Below, piece after piece: positions 1 through 6,282 of a stretch of 6,282 nt of DNA. Numbering within the stretch: position 1 is the first letter of the stretch; each line of letters opens with the position of its first letter. This stretch comes from a virus. Lineage: Duplodnaviria > Heunggongvirae > Uroviricota > Caudoviricetes. Position numbers and translations under genes: made by a program. The stretch lies in the IMG/VR virus record IMGVR_UViG_3300029080_000086, positions 1 to 6,282 of that record; one strand, given 5' to 3'. Below the pieces are notes generated by a model that did no database searches, was not told the DNA's origin, and saw nothing but the letters and a program-made list of their open reading frames with translations.

Positions 1-768
<768 letters not shown>

Positions 769-835
769 GCGTAGTGGATCAGTAATTCAGGACACCTCGA
801 AATCCTGTTAATGTTAAAACAGTGAAAATGAGGTG

Positions 836-1169
836 ATGCATACTCAAAACTCGTCGGACTAAACGTACCTTTTCCCCGGAGTTCAAGCTTGAAGCTATCG
901 AACAGGTGGTTAAATACCAGCGTGATTTCAGAGAAGTCGCGCTGGCACTCGAGCTCAACCCTGACCATTTGAGTAAATGGATACGGTTGTATAAGCAGGA
1001 ACTTCAGGGTATTGAGCCCGCTGGTAATGCTATTACCCCTGAACAACGCGAAATTCAGCAGCTTAAAGCGCAGATAAAGCGCCTTGAGATGGAAAAAGAA
1101 ATACTCAAGCAGGCTGCCGTGCTGATGAGCGAAATCCCCGGAAAGCTGTCGCGCTACTCACATGGCTGA
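836..1169 (+). pseudogene. IS3-family transposase OrfA (IS911-like organisation), frameshifted near the N-terminus
   Basis: Main frame from 837 gives ...TRRTKRTFSPEFKLEAIEQVVKYQRDFREVALALELNPDHLSKWIRLYKQELQ...ITPEQREIQQLKAQIKRLEMEKEILKQAAVLMSE..., an HTH plus leucine-zipper OrfA. The only upstream ATG (836-838, preceded by GAGG) is in a different frame and hits TAA at 860-862, so a 1-nt indel near 845-860 is likely. The computed ORF needs a GTG start at 906. Confidence 0.7.
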
Positions 1170-1312
1170 AAGCAAAGTGGCCAGTGCGGGTTCTTTGTCA
1201 TTTATTCGGTATTCACCGTAGCGTTTATTACGCGCAGGTGAAGGGTGAAGCGTCCTGTTAATGTGCAAAGAATTGAATTACGAAGTCGGGTGAGGGCTTT
1301 CCATGCTCTCAT
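1170..1312 (+). pseudogene. IS3-family transposase OrfB, N-terminal stub (truncated)
   Basis: Immediately after OrfA the translation ...WPVRVLCHLFGIHRSVYYAQVKG... resembles the start of IS3-family OrfB (L-C-x-x-x-G-x-x-RS-x-YY), then stops. The expected 280-aa catalytic domain is absent. The 3' boundary is approximate. Confidence 0.4.
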
Positions 1313-1370
1313 GTCAACGCCACGATGTTTGACCGTTATTTGCCATTTTCATGCCCGCTAAATACTTTCG

Positions 1371-2223
<853 letters not shown>

Positions 2224-2224
<1 letters not shown>

Positions 2225-3621
2225 TGCTGAATCAGGAAACCGCAAAGGCAGCACGAACCGATTCAGGTTATATCCTTCGCGCACCGAGACGAATGCGGGT
2301 TGCTGATGCCGTTGCTCAGTATATGCGGGTGCCCATGGGGGCAGGGAACTCAGTCCCGTGGGATCCGCTGGTGGCACCGTATGTTATTGAGCCGATGAAC
2401 TGCCTGGCCTCGCGTGAATACGACGCAGTGATATTTGTTGGCCCGGCACGAACCGGCAAGACTATCGGCCTGATTGACGGCTGGGTGATTTACAACGTGA
2501 TTTGCGATCCTGCTGATATGCTGATCATTCAGATGACGGAGGAAAAAGCCCGCGAACACTCCAAAAAACGACTCGCCAGAACGTTTCGCGTCAGCCCGGA
2601 AGTGGTCAGTCGCCTGAGTCCGAACAAAAATGACAACAACGTTTATGACAGAACATTCCTTGCTGGTAACTACCTGAAAATCGGCTGGCCGTCAGTCAAT
2701 ATCATGTCCTCATCAGATTATAAATGCGTCGCGCTGACGGATTATGACCGTTTTCCGGAAGATATTGATGGCGAGGGGGATGCTTTCTCTCTTGCCTCAA
2801 AACGTACCACCACATTTATGTCCAGCGGTATGACGCTGGTGGAGAGTTCCCCCGGCAGGGATGTGAAGGATGTGAAATGGCGACGGACTTCACCGCATGA
2901 GGCTCCACCAACCACGGGGATCCTGTCGCTCTATAACCGTGGTGATCGCCGTCGCTGGTACTGGCCCTGTCCACACTGTGGTGAGTATTTTCAGCCCTGC
3001 GGCGATGTGGTTGCTGGTTTCCGTGATATTGCCGATCCCGTGCTGGCAAGTGAGGCGGCTTATATTCAGTGTCCTTCCTGTTCAGGACGGATTATGCCTG
3101 AACAAAAACGTGAGCTGAACGGACGTGGGGTCTGGTTGCGGGATGGTGAATCCATCAATGCGGATGGCAGTCGTTATGGTGATCCCCGACGCTCACGTAT
3201 TGCGTCATTCTGGATGGAGGGTCCGGCAGCTGCTTACCAGACACTCTCGCAACTCGTTTACAAACTGCTTACTGCAGAACAGGAATACGAGACAACCGGA
3301 AGTGAAGAAACACTCAAGACGGTTATCAATACCGACTGGGGATTACCTTATCTTCCCCGCGCCAGCATGGAGCAACGAAAAAGTGAACTGCTTGAGCAGC
3401 GGGCAGAGCCAGTTCCTTCCCGCAGTGTGCCGGATGGCGTTAATTTCCTTGTGGCGACAGTGGATGTGCAGGCGGGACGTCATCGCCGTTTTGTGGTTCA
3501 GGTAACGGGCTATGGCAGCCGTGGCGAACGCTGGATTATTGATCGTTACAACATCACGCAGTCATTGCGCGGTGACAGCGACGGGGAGAGCCAGCGAATT
3601 GATCCGGCCAGCTATGGGTGA
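2224..3621 (+). pseudogene. Phage terminase large subunit (lambda GpA family), C-terminally truncated at a deletion junction
   Basis: Walker A-like FVGPARTGKT near residue 75; cysteine pairs CPHCGE ... CPSCSG as in lambda gpA (CPHCGEE); ATVDVQ and WIIDR motifs align with lambda gpA DSQLD and WLIDR. The ORF is 465 aa against about 640 for gpA and stops at TGA 3619-3621, just after tape-measure-like sequence begins in another frame. Confidence 0.8.
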
Positions 3622-4468
3622 TCAGCAGAGGCAGCGATATCAGGTACAACTGAGTCTTCGCCAGAAATACCAGCAACAGCTGGAGCAGTTGAGGCGGGAT
3701 AGTGAGCAGAAAGGGACATATAACACGGATGACTACAGAAAGGCCGAGCAGGCGCTGACGGAGAGCCTGAACCGACAACTGAATGAGAATCGCCGTTATT
3801 GGCAACAGCTTGAAATTGCTCAGGGTAACTGGAAAAACGGTGCTATGCGGGCGTTTCAGAATTTCACGGCAGATGCGGATAATGCGGCAGGCACTGCTGA
3901 GCAGATGCTTACAGCGGCATTTAACAGTGCAGGTAATGCACTGGCAACGTTCTGTACTACCGGAAAACTGAACTTCAAATCTTTTACCGCCTCGCTCCTT
4001 TCTGATCTGGCAAAAATCATGGCTCAGATGTCCATGATGCAGGCAGTTAAGGGGATTGGTTCGGCGTTTGGCTGGGGGAGTGCAGCAACTGCCAGTGTGA
4101 CGCCCAATGCTGATGGTGGTGTTTATCAGTCTGCTGATTTGAGTCGCTACAGTGGCACGGTGGTTAACCGTCCGACGTTTTTTGCTTTTGCAAAAGGTGC
4201 AGGTGTGATGGGGGAAGCTGGGCCTGAAGCCATTCTGCCTCTGCGTCGTGGTGCTGACGGTAAGCTGGGGGTTGTGGCGGATATTGGTGGTTCAGGTATG
4301 GCGATGTTTGCCCCGCAGTACAACATCGAGATCAATAACGATGGCACGAACGGGCAGATAGGTCCGGCTGCCCTGAAGGTGGTTTATGACCTCGGGAAAA
4401 AAGCAGCAGCGGACTTTATGCAACAGCAGTCCCGTGATGGTGGTCTGTTCTCCGGAGGTGGACGATGA
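3617..4468 (+). pseudogene. Tail tape measure protein (gpH-like), C-terminal about 284 aa only
   Basis: Gln/Ala-rich, coiled-coil-like sequence followed by a Gly-rich C-terminus. Its stop overlaps the start of a near-lambda gpM (ATGA at 4465-4468), exactly as for H/M in lambda. The first 35 codons of the computed ORF (3512-3616) overlap the terminase in another frame and are probably not tape measure. Confidence 0.65.
4454..4460 (+). promoter_or_regulatory. Shine-Dalgarno (GGAGGTG) for gpM
   Basis: GGAGGTG lies 4 nt upstream of ATG 4465, with stop/start overlap ATGA. Confidence 0.5.
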
Positions 4469-4794
4469 AAACCTTCCGCTGGAAAGTGAAACCCGGTATG
4501 GATGTGGCTTCGGCCCCTTCTGTAAGAAAGGTGCGCTTTGGTGATGGCTGTTCCCAGCGAGCGCCTGCCGGGCTGAATGCCAACCTGAAAACGTACAGCG
4601 TGACGCTTTCTGTCCCCCGTGAGGAGGCCACGGTACTGGAGTCGTTTCTGGAAGAGCACGGGGGCTGGAAAGCCTTTCTGTGGACGCCGCCTTATGAGTG
4701 GCGGCAGATAAAGGTGACCTGCGCAAAATGGTCGTCGCGGGTCAGTATGCTGCGTGTTGAGTTCAGCGCAGAGTTTGAACAGGTGGTGAACTGA
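4465..4794 (+). CDS. M: Phage minor tail protein M (lambda gpM), 109 aa
   Basis: Translation MKTFRWKVKPGMDVAS...VTCAKWSSRVSMLRVEFSAEFEQVVN is near-identical to lambda gpM as recalled (a few substitutions). Length is exactly 109 aa and the stop overlaps the gpL start. Confidence 0.9.
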   Translation: MKTFRWKVKPGMDVASAPSVRKVRFGDGCSQRAPAGLNANLKTYSVTLSVPREEATVLESFLEEHGGWKAFLWTPPYEWRQIKVTCAKWSSRVSMLRVEFSAEFEQVVN

Positions 4795-5492
4795 TGCAGG
4801 ATATCCGGCAGGAAACACTGAATGAATGCACCCGTGCGGAGCAGTCGGTCAGCGTGGTGCTCTGGGAAATCGACCTGACAGAGGTCGGTGGAGAACGTTA
4901 TTTTTTCTGTAATGAGCAGAACGAAAAAGGTGAGCCGGTCACCTGGCAGGGGCGACAGTATCAGCCGTATCCCATTCAGGGGAGTGGTTTTGAACTGAAT
5001 GGCAAAGGCACCAGTACGCGCCCCACGCTGACGGTTTCTAACCTGTACGGTATGGTCACCGGGATGGCGGAAGATCTGCAGAGTCTGGTCGGCGGAACGG
5101 TGGTCCGGCGTAAGGTTTACGCCCGTTTTCTGGATGCGGTGAACTTCGTCAACGGAAACAGTGACGCCGATCCGGAGCAGGAGGTGATCAGCCGTTGGCG
5201 CATTGAGCAGTGCAGCGAACTGAGCGCGGTGAGTGCCTCTTTTGTACTGTCCACGCCGACGGAAACGGATGGCGCTGTTTTTCCGGGACGTATCATGCTG
5301 GCCAACACCTGCACCTGGACCTATCGCGGTGATGAGTGCGGTTATCACGGTCCGGCAGTCGCGGATGAATATGACCAGCCGACGTCCGATATCACGAAGG
5401 ATAAATGCAGCAAATGCCTGAGCGGCTGTAAGTTTCGCAATAACGTCGGCAACTTTGGCGGCTTCCTTTCCATTAACAAACTTTCGCAGTAA
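4794..5492 (+). CDS. L: Phage minor tail protein L (lambda gpL), 232 aa, with C-terminal cysteine cluster
   Basis: Translation MQDIRQETLNECTRAEQS...CTWTYRGDECGY...CSKCLSGCKFRNNVGNFGGFLSINKLSQ is near-identical to lambda gpL as recalled. The conserved Cys residues that coordinate the Fe-S cluster in gpL are present. Confidence 0.9.
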   Translation: MQDIRQETLNECTRAEQSVSVVLWEIDLTEVGGERYFFCNEQNEKGEPVTWQGRQYQPYPIQGSGFELNGKGTSTRPTLTVSNLYGMVTGMAEDLQSLVGGTVVRRKVYARFLDAVNFVNGNSDADPEQEVISRWRIEQCSELSAVSASFVLSTPTETDGAVFPGRIMLANTCTWTYRGDECGYHGPAVADEYDQPTSDITKDKCSKCLSGCKFRNNVGNFGGFLSINKLSQ

Positions 5493-5496
5493 TCCC

Positions 5497-6127
5497 ATGA
5501 CAGAGACAGAATCAGCGATTCTGGCGCACGCCCGGCGATGTGCGCCAGCGGAGTCGTGCGGCTTCGTGGTGAGAACGCCGGAGGGGGAAAGATATTTTCC
5601 CTGCGTGAATATCTCCGGTGAGCCGGAGGAGTATTTCCGGATGTCGCCGGAGGACTGGCTGCAGGCAGAAATGCAGGGTGAGATTGTGGCGCTGGTCCAC
5701 AGTCACCCCGGTGGTCTGCCCTGGCTGAGTGAGGCTGACCGGCGGCTGCAGGTGCAGAGTGATTTGCCGTGCTGGCTGGTCTGCCGGGGTGAGATTCATA
5801 AATTCCGCTGTGTGCCGCATCTCACCGGGCGGCGCTTTGAGCACGGGGTGACGGACTGTTACACGCTGTTCCGGGATGCTTACCATCTGGCGGGGATTGA
5901 GATGCCGGATTTTCATCGCGGGGATGACTGGTGGCGTCACGGTCAGAATCTCTATCTGGATAATCTGGAGGCCACAGGGCTGTATCAGGTGCCGTTGTCA
6001 GCGGCGCAGCCGGGCGATGTGCTGCTGTGCTGTTTTGGTTCATCGGTGCCGAATCATGCGGCCATTTACTGTGGTGACGGCGAGCTGCTGCACCATATTC
6101 CTGAACAACTGAGCAAACGAGAGAGGT
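5497..6127 (+). pseudogene. K: Phage tail tip assembly protein K (lambda gpK; MPN/JAMM plus NlpC/P60 domains), C-terminal tail replaced
   Basis: Translation MTETESAILAHARRCAPAESCGF...VALVHSHPGGLPWLSEAD (JAMM motif H-x-H-x7-S-x2-D) ...GVTDCYTLF...NHAAIY (NlpC/P60-like Cys/His) ...EQLSKRERY is near-identical to lambda gpK up to KRERY. After about 6126 the frame runs on through gpJ-derived sequence out of frame with no stop before the window end. Alternative starts are 5455 (longest ORF) and 5641 (ATG with GGAGGAG upstream, the start of the 199-aa lambda K annotation as I recall it). Confidence 0.75.
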
Positions 6128-6282
6128 ATGACGCCGGACAGCACCACAGACCAGCTGCAGAACAAAACGCTCTGGTCGTCATACACCGAAATCATCGATG
6201 TGAAACAGTGCTACCCGAACACGGCATTGGTCGGCGTACAGGTGGATTCGGAGCAGTTCGGCAGCCAGCAGGTGAGCCGTAA
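6128..6282 (+). pseudogene. J: Host specificity / tail tip protein J (lambda gpJ), internal segment, continues beyond the window
   Basis: Frame from 6128 gives MTPDSTTDQLQNKTLWSSYTEIIDVKQCYPNTALVGVQVDSEQFGSQQVSRN, which I recognise as an internal stretch of lambda gpJ (roughly residues 220-275). The gpJ N-terminal 220 or so residues and all of gpI are absent upstream. Confidence 0.65.

What the first reader, a model, noticed from the sequence alone, without database searches (positions are those of the whole stretch)
6100..6282. gpK fused to an internal part of gpJ: deletion of the gpK C-terminus, all of gpI and the gpJ N-terminus
The gpK-like sequence is lambda-like up to ...EQLSKRERY (about 6126). 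The next bases, read in a different frame from 6128, encode MTPDSTTDQLQNKTLWSSYTEIIDVKQ..., which belongs to the interior of gpJ. This implies a deletion of about 1.4 kb in lambda terms. The gpK reading frame continues through gpJ-derived DNA with no stop inside the window, so if expressed it would give gpK catalytic domains with a foreign out-of-frame tail. A short microhomology (GTAT) at the breakpoint is possible but cannot be verified from memory.
Basis: partly seen in the sequence, partly recalled or inferred. Interest (0 to 1): 0.45.

Follow-up and report, generated by a model that had tools for sequence, protein, structure and literature searches.

The report
Deletion scar in decayed lambda-like prophage
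The end of this window is a real deletion junction inside a heavily eroded lambda-like prophage of E. coli, where the tail gene K is joined out of frame to a small interior piece of the tail-fibre gene J; this is ordinary prophage decay, not a new system.

Summary
The junction is real and sits at window 6128/6129. Window 4330-6128 aligns to lambda 12965-14763 (H 3' end, M, L, K). Window 6128-6282 aligns to lambda 16054-16208, inside J and starting at J Met184. The deletion removes the last 36 codons of K, all of I and the first 183 codons of J. It spans 1,291 bp in lambda terms and 1,678 bp against the closest intact relative, a 99.2%-identical E. coli prophage. The two sides share only 2 bp (AT), not GTAT.

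The K frame does stop in the window, at TAA 6280-6282, giving a 261-aa ORF of 211 aa K plus a 50-aa out-of-frame tail.

The same junction occurs at 100% identity in four contigs from four metagenome or read-set assemblies. It is absent from 5,426 complete E. coli genomes and 50,697 phage records.

It is one of at least three microhomology deletions in this locus:
- terminase A' joined to 'H at 3613-3615;
- K' joined to 'J';
- J' joined to 'stf, 190 bp past the window.

The locus is flanked by IS debris. Other E. coli prophage remnants, including K-12 Qin, carry analogous but different junctions. Verdict: an ordinary scar in a defective prophage, of low interest.

The parts
5497..6129 (+). K-derived part of the fusion ORF: codons 1-211 of a 247-codon lambda-type gene K (tail tip assembly protein, Prok-JAB plus NlpC/P60 domains)
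   Evidence: 99.2% nt identity to the intact K of L003. 95.4% to lambda through nt 14763. Pfam Prok-JAB at residues 4-103 and NLPC_P60 at residues 111-208, covering profile positions 1-89 of 105.
6128..6129 (+). Deletion junction: 2-bp microhomology AT shared by the K side (GGTAT|ACC) and the J side (AGGAT|GAC)
   Evidence: Three-way comparison of the window with the L003 K side and L003 J side, and with lambda.
6128..6282 (+). J-derived DNA: J codons 184-234 plus the first two bases of codon 235, the end of the FNIII-A domain onward. J continues to codon 298 just past the window.
   Evidence: Window 6128-6282 matches lambda 16054-16208 at 97.4% and L003 7194-7348 with 2 mismatches in 155 nt. 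Pfam FNIII-A_GpJ profile positions 102-125 of 126. The extension past the window is seen in L004 and L005.
5497..6282 (+). K' fusion ORF, 261 aa: 211 aa of K plus a 50-aa out-of-frame tail (DAGQHHRPAAEQ...PAGEP), with stop TAA at 6280-6282
   Evidence: ORF list and translation.
4794..5492 (+). Intact gene L (minor tail protein L, 232 aa)
   Evidence: Pfam Phage_tail_L over its full length, E = 5e-101. Collinear with lambda.
4465..4794 (+). Intact gene M (minor tail protein, 109 aa)
   Evidence: Pfam Phage_min_tail positions 1-108 of 108.
3613..4468 (+). 3' remnant of the tape-measure gene H
   Evidence: Window 3613-6129 matches L003 3001-5517, and the L003 tape-measure gene spans 782-3856. Pfam Tape_meas_lam_C.
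3613..3615 (+). Second deletion junction, terminase large subunit A' joined to 'H, with 3-bp microhomology TAT
   Evidence: Window 1785-3615 matches L002 2821-4651 (terminase). Window 3613 onward matches L003 3001 onward (H). Three-way comparison.
2224..3621 (+). Truncated terminase large subunit gene: complete ATPase domain, nuclease domain cut at profile position 116 of 294
   Evidence: Pfam GpA_ATPase and GpA_nuclease. 99.2% identity to L002.
1811..2224 (+). DUF1441 gene lying where a small terminase subunit gene would be
   Evidence: Pfam DUF1441, E = 7e-35. The same gene is annotated upstream of the terminase in L002.
1..1817 (.). Insertion-sequence debris bounding the remnant on the left: IS21/IS100-type istA 5' fragment (1-327), IS3-family orfA fragment (906-1169) and an istB 3' fragment on the minus strand (1371-1817)
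   Evidence: Pfam HTH_38, HTH_Tnp_1 and IstB_IS21. Bases 1-1315 are 99.8% identical to IS3/HTH regions on E. coli plasmids.

Best explanation
Window 6100-6282 is the scar of a spontaneous deletion in a defective lambda-like prophage of E. coli or a close relative. Illegitimate, microhomology-level recombination joined K codon 211 to J codon 184 through a shared AT. That removed about 1.7 kb of the ancestral prophage: the K 3' end, gene I, a small ORF and the J 5' end.

The product is a pseudogene-like ORF. It keeps both K domains, Prok-JAB and most of NlpC/P60, and adds 50 residues of out-of-frame J-derived sequence before a TAA. The J fragment has no proper translation start, and a further deletion truncates it 345 bp downstream.

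Shown here: the junction, its coordinates, the missing genes, the 2-bp overlap, its presence in four independent assemblies, and the other deletions in the locus.

Inferred: the mechanism (RecA-independent slippage or end joining), the host being E. coli, and the fusion ORF having no function.
For: - Two collinear high-identity blocks meet at 6128: against lambda and against the 99.2%-identical intact prophage L003.
- The overlap at the junction is only AT.
- The K frame ends at TAA 6280-6282. The J frame is open only from 6113, and ATG 6128 is J Met184.
- Pfam places K' at NLPC_P60 profile positions 1-89 of 105 and the J piece at the last 24 positions of FNIII-A_GpJ.
- The identical junction, at 100% identity over 1.6-5.0 kb, occurs in contigs from four separate assemblies: OBVG01002064.1, ERZ27239369, SRR22500037 and ERZ918756.
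- The same locus carries two more junctions with 2-3 bp overlaps: A'::'H at 3613-3615, and J'::'stf 190 bp beyond the window.
- IS fragments bound the locus on the left.
- Portal, capsid, tail tube, I and most of J are absent.
- Other E. coli prophage remnants show analogous but different junctions. K-12 Qin has nohA abutting stfQ.
Against: - No bacterial chromosomal gene lies in the window or in any recovered contig. All end in IS or tail-fibre repeats. Chromosomal prophage status and the host species are therefore inferred from 95-99% identity to E. coli prophages, not shown.
- All copies are identical, so there is no test of whether M, L and K' are under selection.
- An independent K::J deletion in two E. 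coli genomes has its K breakpoint within 8 bp of this one. A purely random-breakpoint model does not predict that.
Confidence: 0.93

Rival explanations
1. Assembly chimera: the K and J pieces were joined by an assembler, not in the cell.
For: Lambdoid tail genes are multi-copy in E. coli. One search found a median of 4 matching places per genome, and such repeats break and mis-join short-read assemblies. All contigs that carry the junction are short, at most 5.6 kb.
Against: The junction is identical in four contigs from four different assemblies made with different assemblers and k-mer sizes, k119 and k127 among them. The two sides share only 2 bp, so there is no repeat through which a de Bruijn graph could cross over. 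The locus holds two more deletions of the same kind.
Confidence: 0.02
2. Natural mosaic variant: 6128-6282 is the genuine 3' end of an alternative, intact K or I gene in some lambdoid phage.
For: Lambdoid phages are mosaic. The K ORF is open for 261 codons and ends in a clean stop.
Against: The 155 nt are 97.4-98.7% identical to the interior of J and are read out of frame. None of 50,697 phage records covers more than the K part of the query in one place. I and the first 183 codons of J, both needed for lambda tail-tip assembly, are absent, and the J fragment ends after 345 bp.
Confidence: 0.01
3. The deletion arose by homologous recombination or IS action, for example between two resident prophages or next to a transposase, rather than by microhomology-level illegitimate recombination.
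For: The window is IS-rich on its left. E. coli genomes carry several similar prophages. The independent deletion in L002 used a 16-bp imperfect repeat.
Against: No IS sequence or IS end lies at or near 6128. The K and J sides share 2 bp only. Both sides are closest to the same parent type, L003, at 99.2% and 98.7%.
Confidence: 0.03
4. Domesticated remnant: the M-L-K' block, or K' alone with its JAB and NlpC/P60 catalytic domains, is kept by the host for a cellular function.
For: M and L are intact. K' keeps the JAMM-like HSHPx7SxxD motif and the Cys and His residues of NlpC/P60 (sequence, domains; assigning these as catalytic residues is my inference). The remnant is found unchanged in four samples.
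Against: Identity among the copies is 100%, so there is no divergence from which to infer purifying selection. The junction is absent from 5,426 complete E. coli genomes, so it is rare. The NlpC/P60 profile is cut at position 89 of 105 and replaced by random out-of-frame sequence. Every neighbouring gene is also truncated.
Confidence: 0.02

Closest known systems
Bacteriophage lambda tail-tip gene block H-M-L-K-I-J (NC_001416, nt 10542-18903)
   Same: Same gene order. Nucleotide identity is 95-97% for the 3' end of H, M, L, K up to nt 14763, and J nt 16054-16398.
   Different: Lambda nt 14764-16053 are missing: the K 3' end, all of I and J codons 1-183. Most of H and everything from W to T are also missing. 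The K here is the long 247-codon form with an N-terminal JAB domain, whereas the lambda record annotates only 199 codons.
Intact lambdoid prophage of E. coli SCEC020023 (NZ_CP025950.3, 1541038-1550314) and similar prophages in other strains
   Same: 99.2% identity over window 3613-6129 and 98.7% over 6128-6282. This is the best available model of the undeleted parent.
   Different: It has complete H, K (247 aa), I, an extra 339-nt ORF and J (3,414 nt). The window lacks 1,678 bp of this stretch.
Prophage remnant of E. coli USDA-ARS-USMARC-49610 and Z142-6 (NZ_CP104123.1, between Qin-type lysis/cold-shock genes and lom-stf)
   Same: Same DUF1441-terminase module at 99.2% identity. It also has K fused directly to an internal J fragment, and PGAP annotates both as partial pseudogenes.
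   Different: It is an independent event: K nt 14771 joined to J nt 15670 through a 16-bp imperfect repeat. The K segment is only 95.9% identical to the window. The other deletions differ too (terminase joined to the 3' end of L; J nt 16487 followed by lom).
Cryptic prophages Qin and DLP12 of E. coli
   Same: Late-gene regions collapsed by large deletions so that distant genes abut. In K-12 Qin, nohA directly overlaps stfQ. In strain BE2-5, DLP12 reads Nu1 fragment - 104 bp of H - 496 bp of J - stf.
   Different: The breakpoints and retained pieces differ. The window shows no nucleotide similarity to the K-12 Qin region itself, and its chromosomal site is unknown.

Membership tests
Lambda gpK family (tail tip assembly protein K; Prok-JAB + NlpC/P60) | N-terminal JAB/MPN domain | tested here: met
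   Pfam PF14464 Prok-JAB at residues 4-103, E = 8e-14, above the gathering score.
Lambda gpK family (tail tip assembly protein K; Prok-JAB + NlpC/P60) | Complete NlpC/P60 domain and native C-terminus (247 aa in close relatives) | tested here: not met
   PF00877 is matched only over profile positions 1-89 of 105. The last 36 native residues are replaced by 50 out-of-frame residues.
Lambda gpK family (tail tip assembly protein K; Prok-JAB + NlpC/P60) | Sits in a working tail-tip operon, followed by overlapping gene I and by J | tested here: not met
   Gene I is absent. J is reduced to codons 184-298.
Lambda gpJ / TipJ central tail fibre | Full-length ORF of about 1,130 aa with its own start and a receptor-binding C-terminus | tested here: not met
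   Only lambda nt 16054-16398 remain, that is 345 bp. The frame is open only from window 6113. Downstream the fragment is joined out of frame to the interior of stf.
Defective (cryptic) lambdoid prophage | Phage structural genes present but interrupted by inactivating deletions, with essential genes missing | tested here: met
   There are three deletion junctions: A'::'H, K'::'J and J'::'stf. No portal, capsid, tail tube or I gene lies between terminase and stf.
Defective (cryptic) lambdoid prophage | Integrated in a bacterial chromosome, with attachment site, integrase and flanking host genes | not testable with these tools
   The window and all recovered contigs (at most 5.6 kb) end in IS or tail-fibre repeats. 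No complete genome in the collections carries the locus.
Illegitimate (microhomology) deletion | The two parental sequences share only a few bases at the junction, with no IS end and no long repeat | tested here: met
   AT (2 bp) at K::J, TAT (3 bp) at A::H and AA (2 bp) at J::stf. No repeat in the window spans the junction.

The most novel reading that the evidence does not exclude
The K/I gene boundary (lambda nt about 14756-14771, the purine-rich GAGAGAGGTA stretch just upstream of the I start) may be a preferred breakpoint for deletions in lambdoid prophages. Two independent K::J deletions, this one and the one in E. coli USMARC-49610/Z142-6, break within 8 bp of each other on different K alleles. 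Alternatively, the retained M-L-K' block may be a domesticated peptidase module. Neither idea is excluded and neither is supported beyond a post-hoc coincidence. I estimate the chance of that coincidence at about 2%, given how the second case was found.
Probability: 0.04. Interest if true: 0.3.

Novelty: already known. Interest (0 to 1): 0.08.

Why it matters
It matters little beyond annotation. The ORF at 5497-6282 should be labelled a K pseudogene or fusion and 6128-6282 a J fragment; neither is a novel protein. The locus is a clean worked example of how lambdoid prophages erode through successive microhomology deletions and IS insertions. The exact junction could serve as a lineage marker for the E. 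coli clone that carries it in gut metagenomes.

Tried and rejected
- Exact 24-mer across the junction: 0 hits in GTDB species-representative genomes, 0 in IMG/VR and 1 in JGI/ENA metagenome contigs.
- Exact-protein look-ups of the fusion ORF with the ATG 5497 and TTG 5455 starts found nothing. The gene callers had used the internal ATG at 5641, and that version found the contigs.
- I tried to place the locus on a chromosome. No complete E. coli genome covers more than 61% of the window in one place. The left flank matches only IS copies, many of them on plasmids. The right flank matches only generic J and stf pieces. One such match led to DLP12 in strain BE2-5, which is a different remnant.
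- Comparison with K-12 Qin found no nucleotide similarity to the window.
- Rfam found no family in the window. The repeat search found nothing at the junction.
- I did not run the large protein-database searches or a structure prediction. Nucleotide-level identity already answers the question.

Full report
**Observation**

The window's ORF map shows, left to right:
- IS fragments;
- a DUF1441 gene (1811-2224);
- a truncated terminase large-subunit gene (2224-3621);
- a tape-measure 3' remnant ending at 4468;
- M (4465-4794) and L (4794-5492);
- an ORF that ends exactly at the last base of the window.

Pfam confirms each assignment.

BLASTN of the window against lambda NC_001416 (annotation) gives two collinear blocks that meet at one base. 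Window 4330-6128 matches lambda 12965-14763 at 95.4%. Window 6128-6282 matches lambda 16054-16208 at 97.4%, E = 1e-71. Lambda K ends at 14875, I spans 14773-15444 and J starts at 15505. The missing 1,291 bp are therefore the K 3' end, all of I and J codons 1-183. Window ATG 6128 is J Met184.

**Closest intact parent**

A whole-window megablast against 5,426 complete E. coli genomes found prophages 99.2% identical over window 3613-6282, split into two pieces. In E. coli SCEC020023 (L003), window 3613-6129 matches L003 3001-5517 and window 6128-6282 matches L003 7194-7348. That prophage has a 247-aa K, gene I, an extra 339-nt ORF and a full J. Relative to it the deletion is 1,678 bp.

At the junction the K side reads GGTAT|ACC and the J side AGGAT|GAC. 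Only AT (window 6128-6129) is shared. With lambda itself only A is shared.

**Reading frames**

- K starts at ATG 5497 and is native for 211 codons; Tyr211 is 6127-6129.
- It then reads 50 codons of J-derived DNA out of frame and stops at TAA 6280-6282, the last three bases of the window.
- K' keeps Prok-JAB (residues 4-103) and NlpC/P60 profile positions 1-89 of 105.
- The J frame is open only from 6113. Its only start is the internal Met184 codon, 1 nt after the GAGG that would normally serve gene I. Independent translation of the J piece is therefore unlikely; this last point is inference.

**Is the junction real, and who else has it?**

- No phage record among 50,697 covers more than the K part of the query in one place.
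- No complete E. coli genome has the junction. The only two genomes with full query coverage do it in two pieces spread over 760 bp.
- An exact 24-mer across the junction is absent from GTDB representative genomes and from IMG/VR. It occurs once in metagenome contigs, in OBVG01002064.1 (L004).
- Exact-protein look-ups found the truncated terminase ORF and the K' ORF, as called from ATG 5641, on contigs from ERZ27239369, ERZ918756 (human gut metagenome, PRJEB6456), ERZ28566121 and SRR22500037.
- Six contigs overlap the window, five at 100% identity and one (L006) at 99.97%. Four of them, L004, L005, L008 and L009, span the junction, all at 100%.

With only 2 bp shared between the sides, a recurrent assembler artefact is not credible. 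The junction is a real allele carried by a lineage seen in several samples.

**Beyond the window**

L004 and L005 extend past base 6282. J continues only to lambda nt 16398 (codon 298), 345 bp in all. It is then joined through a 2-bp overlap (AA) to the interior of a side-tail-fibre gene, about 425 nt into the stfR homologue of L002, in a different frame.

Inside the window, the terminase gene is joined to the 3' part of H at 3613-3615 through TAT.

So the late region has been reduced by at least three microhomology deletions to: DUF1441 - A' - 'H - M - L - K' - 'J' - 'stf. On the left it is bounded by an istB fragment, an IS3 orfA fragment and an IS21/IS100 istA fragment.

**Comparison with other remnants**

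- E. coli USMARC-49610 and Z142-6 carry a remnant with the same DUF1441-terminase module (99.2%). It has a different history: terminase joined to the 3' end of L, K nt 14771 joined to J nt 15670 through a 16-bp imperfect repeat, and J ending at 16487 before lom. PGAP already labels these genes partial pseudogenes.
- FORC 064 has I (about 15254) joined to J (16138).
- DLP12 of strain BE2-5 is Nu1(261) - H(11136-11239) - J(15660-16155) - stf.
- K-12 Qin has nohA abutting stfQ.

Small relic pieces of lambda-type tail genes stitched together by deletions are thus routine in E. coli. Reviews of 'grounded' or defective prophages describe this decay (for example PMC6379469, listed; title and abstract only were seen).

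**Function**

According to recent lambda structure papers, gpK is needed for tail assembly but has not been seen in virions (PMC10721106; PMC12617516). Without I, most of J, the tail tube, the portal and the capsid genes, no tail or particle can be made from this locus. This follows from established lambda genetics and is inference here. I commit to K' being a pseudogene product without function. The copies are identical, so selection cannot be assessed.

**Loose end**

The K breakpoints of this deletion and of the independent USMARC-49610 deletion lie within 8 bp of each other. Given the way the second case was found (would have reported any breakpoint in a range of about 770 bp), I estimate the chance of this at about 2%. 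It is a post-hoc observation, and FORC 064 breaks elsewhere. It is a weak hint of a hot spot at the K/I boundary, nothing more.

**Verdict**

The feature is an ordinary deletion scar in a defective lambdoid prophage. It is an already known kind of thing and of low interest.

Noticed in passing
window 3613-3615: A second deletion junction. The terminase large-subunit gene, cut inside its nuclease domain, is joined to the last ~0.86 kb of the tape-measure gene H through a 3-bp overlap (TAT). This removes everything from the terminase 3' end through W, B, C, D, E, the F genes, Z, U, V, G, T and most of H.
   Followed up: partly
L005 5160-5161 (190 bp beyond the window end); also L004 4740-4741: A third deletion junction. 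J codon 298 is joined out of frame to the interior of a side-tail-fibre (stf) gene through a 2-bp overlap (AA), so the J relic is only 345 bp long.
   Followed up: partly
window 1-1817: A patchwork of insertion-sequence fragments: an IS21/IS100-type istA 5' end, an IS3-family orfA fragment and an istB 3' fragment on the minus strand. Bases 1-1315 are 99.8% identical to a segment found on ~100-kb E. coli plasmids. Most recovered contigs (L004-L007) start inside this patchwork, at window 1312-1732.
   Followed up: partly
L002 6222-6237 (E. coli USMARC-49610; same in Z142-6): An independent K::J deletion (lambda 14771 joined to 15670) through a 16-bp imperfect repeat. Its K breakpoint lies within 8 bp of the window's. 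The J left end is also within about 10-25 bp of the J left end in the DLP12 remnant of strain BE2-5 (L010, lambda 15660). These may be weak deletion hot spots.
   Followed up: partly
L001 (lambda NC_001416) 14133-14875: The lambda reference annotates K as 199 aa from nt 14276. Reading from nt 14133 gives the first ~45 residues of the long 247-aa K (the JAB-domain form seen in the window and in L003), then runs out of frame. The reference lambda sequence therefore seems to carry a frameshift relative to its relatives in the K 5' region.
   Followed up: no
window 5641-6282: Public gene calls for this ORF start at the internal ATG 5641 (213 aa) and so miss the JAB domain. Exact-sequence look-ups with the full-length ORF therefore fail.
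   Followed up: yes
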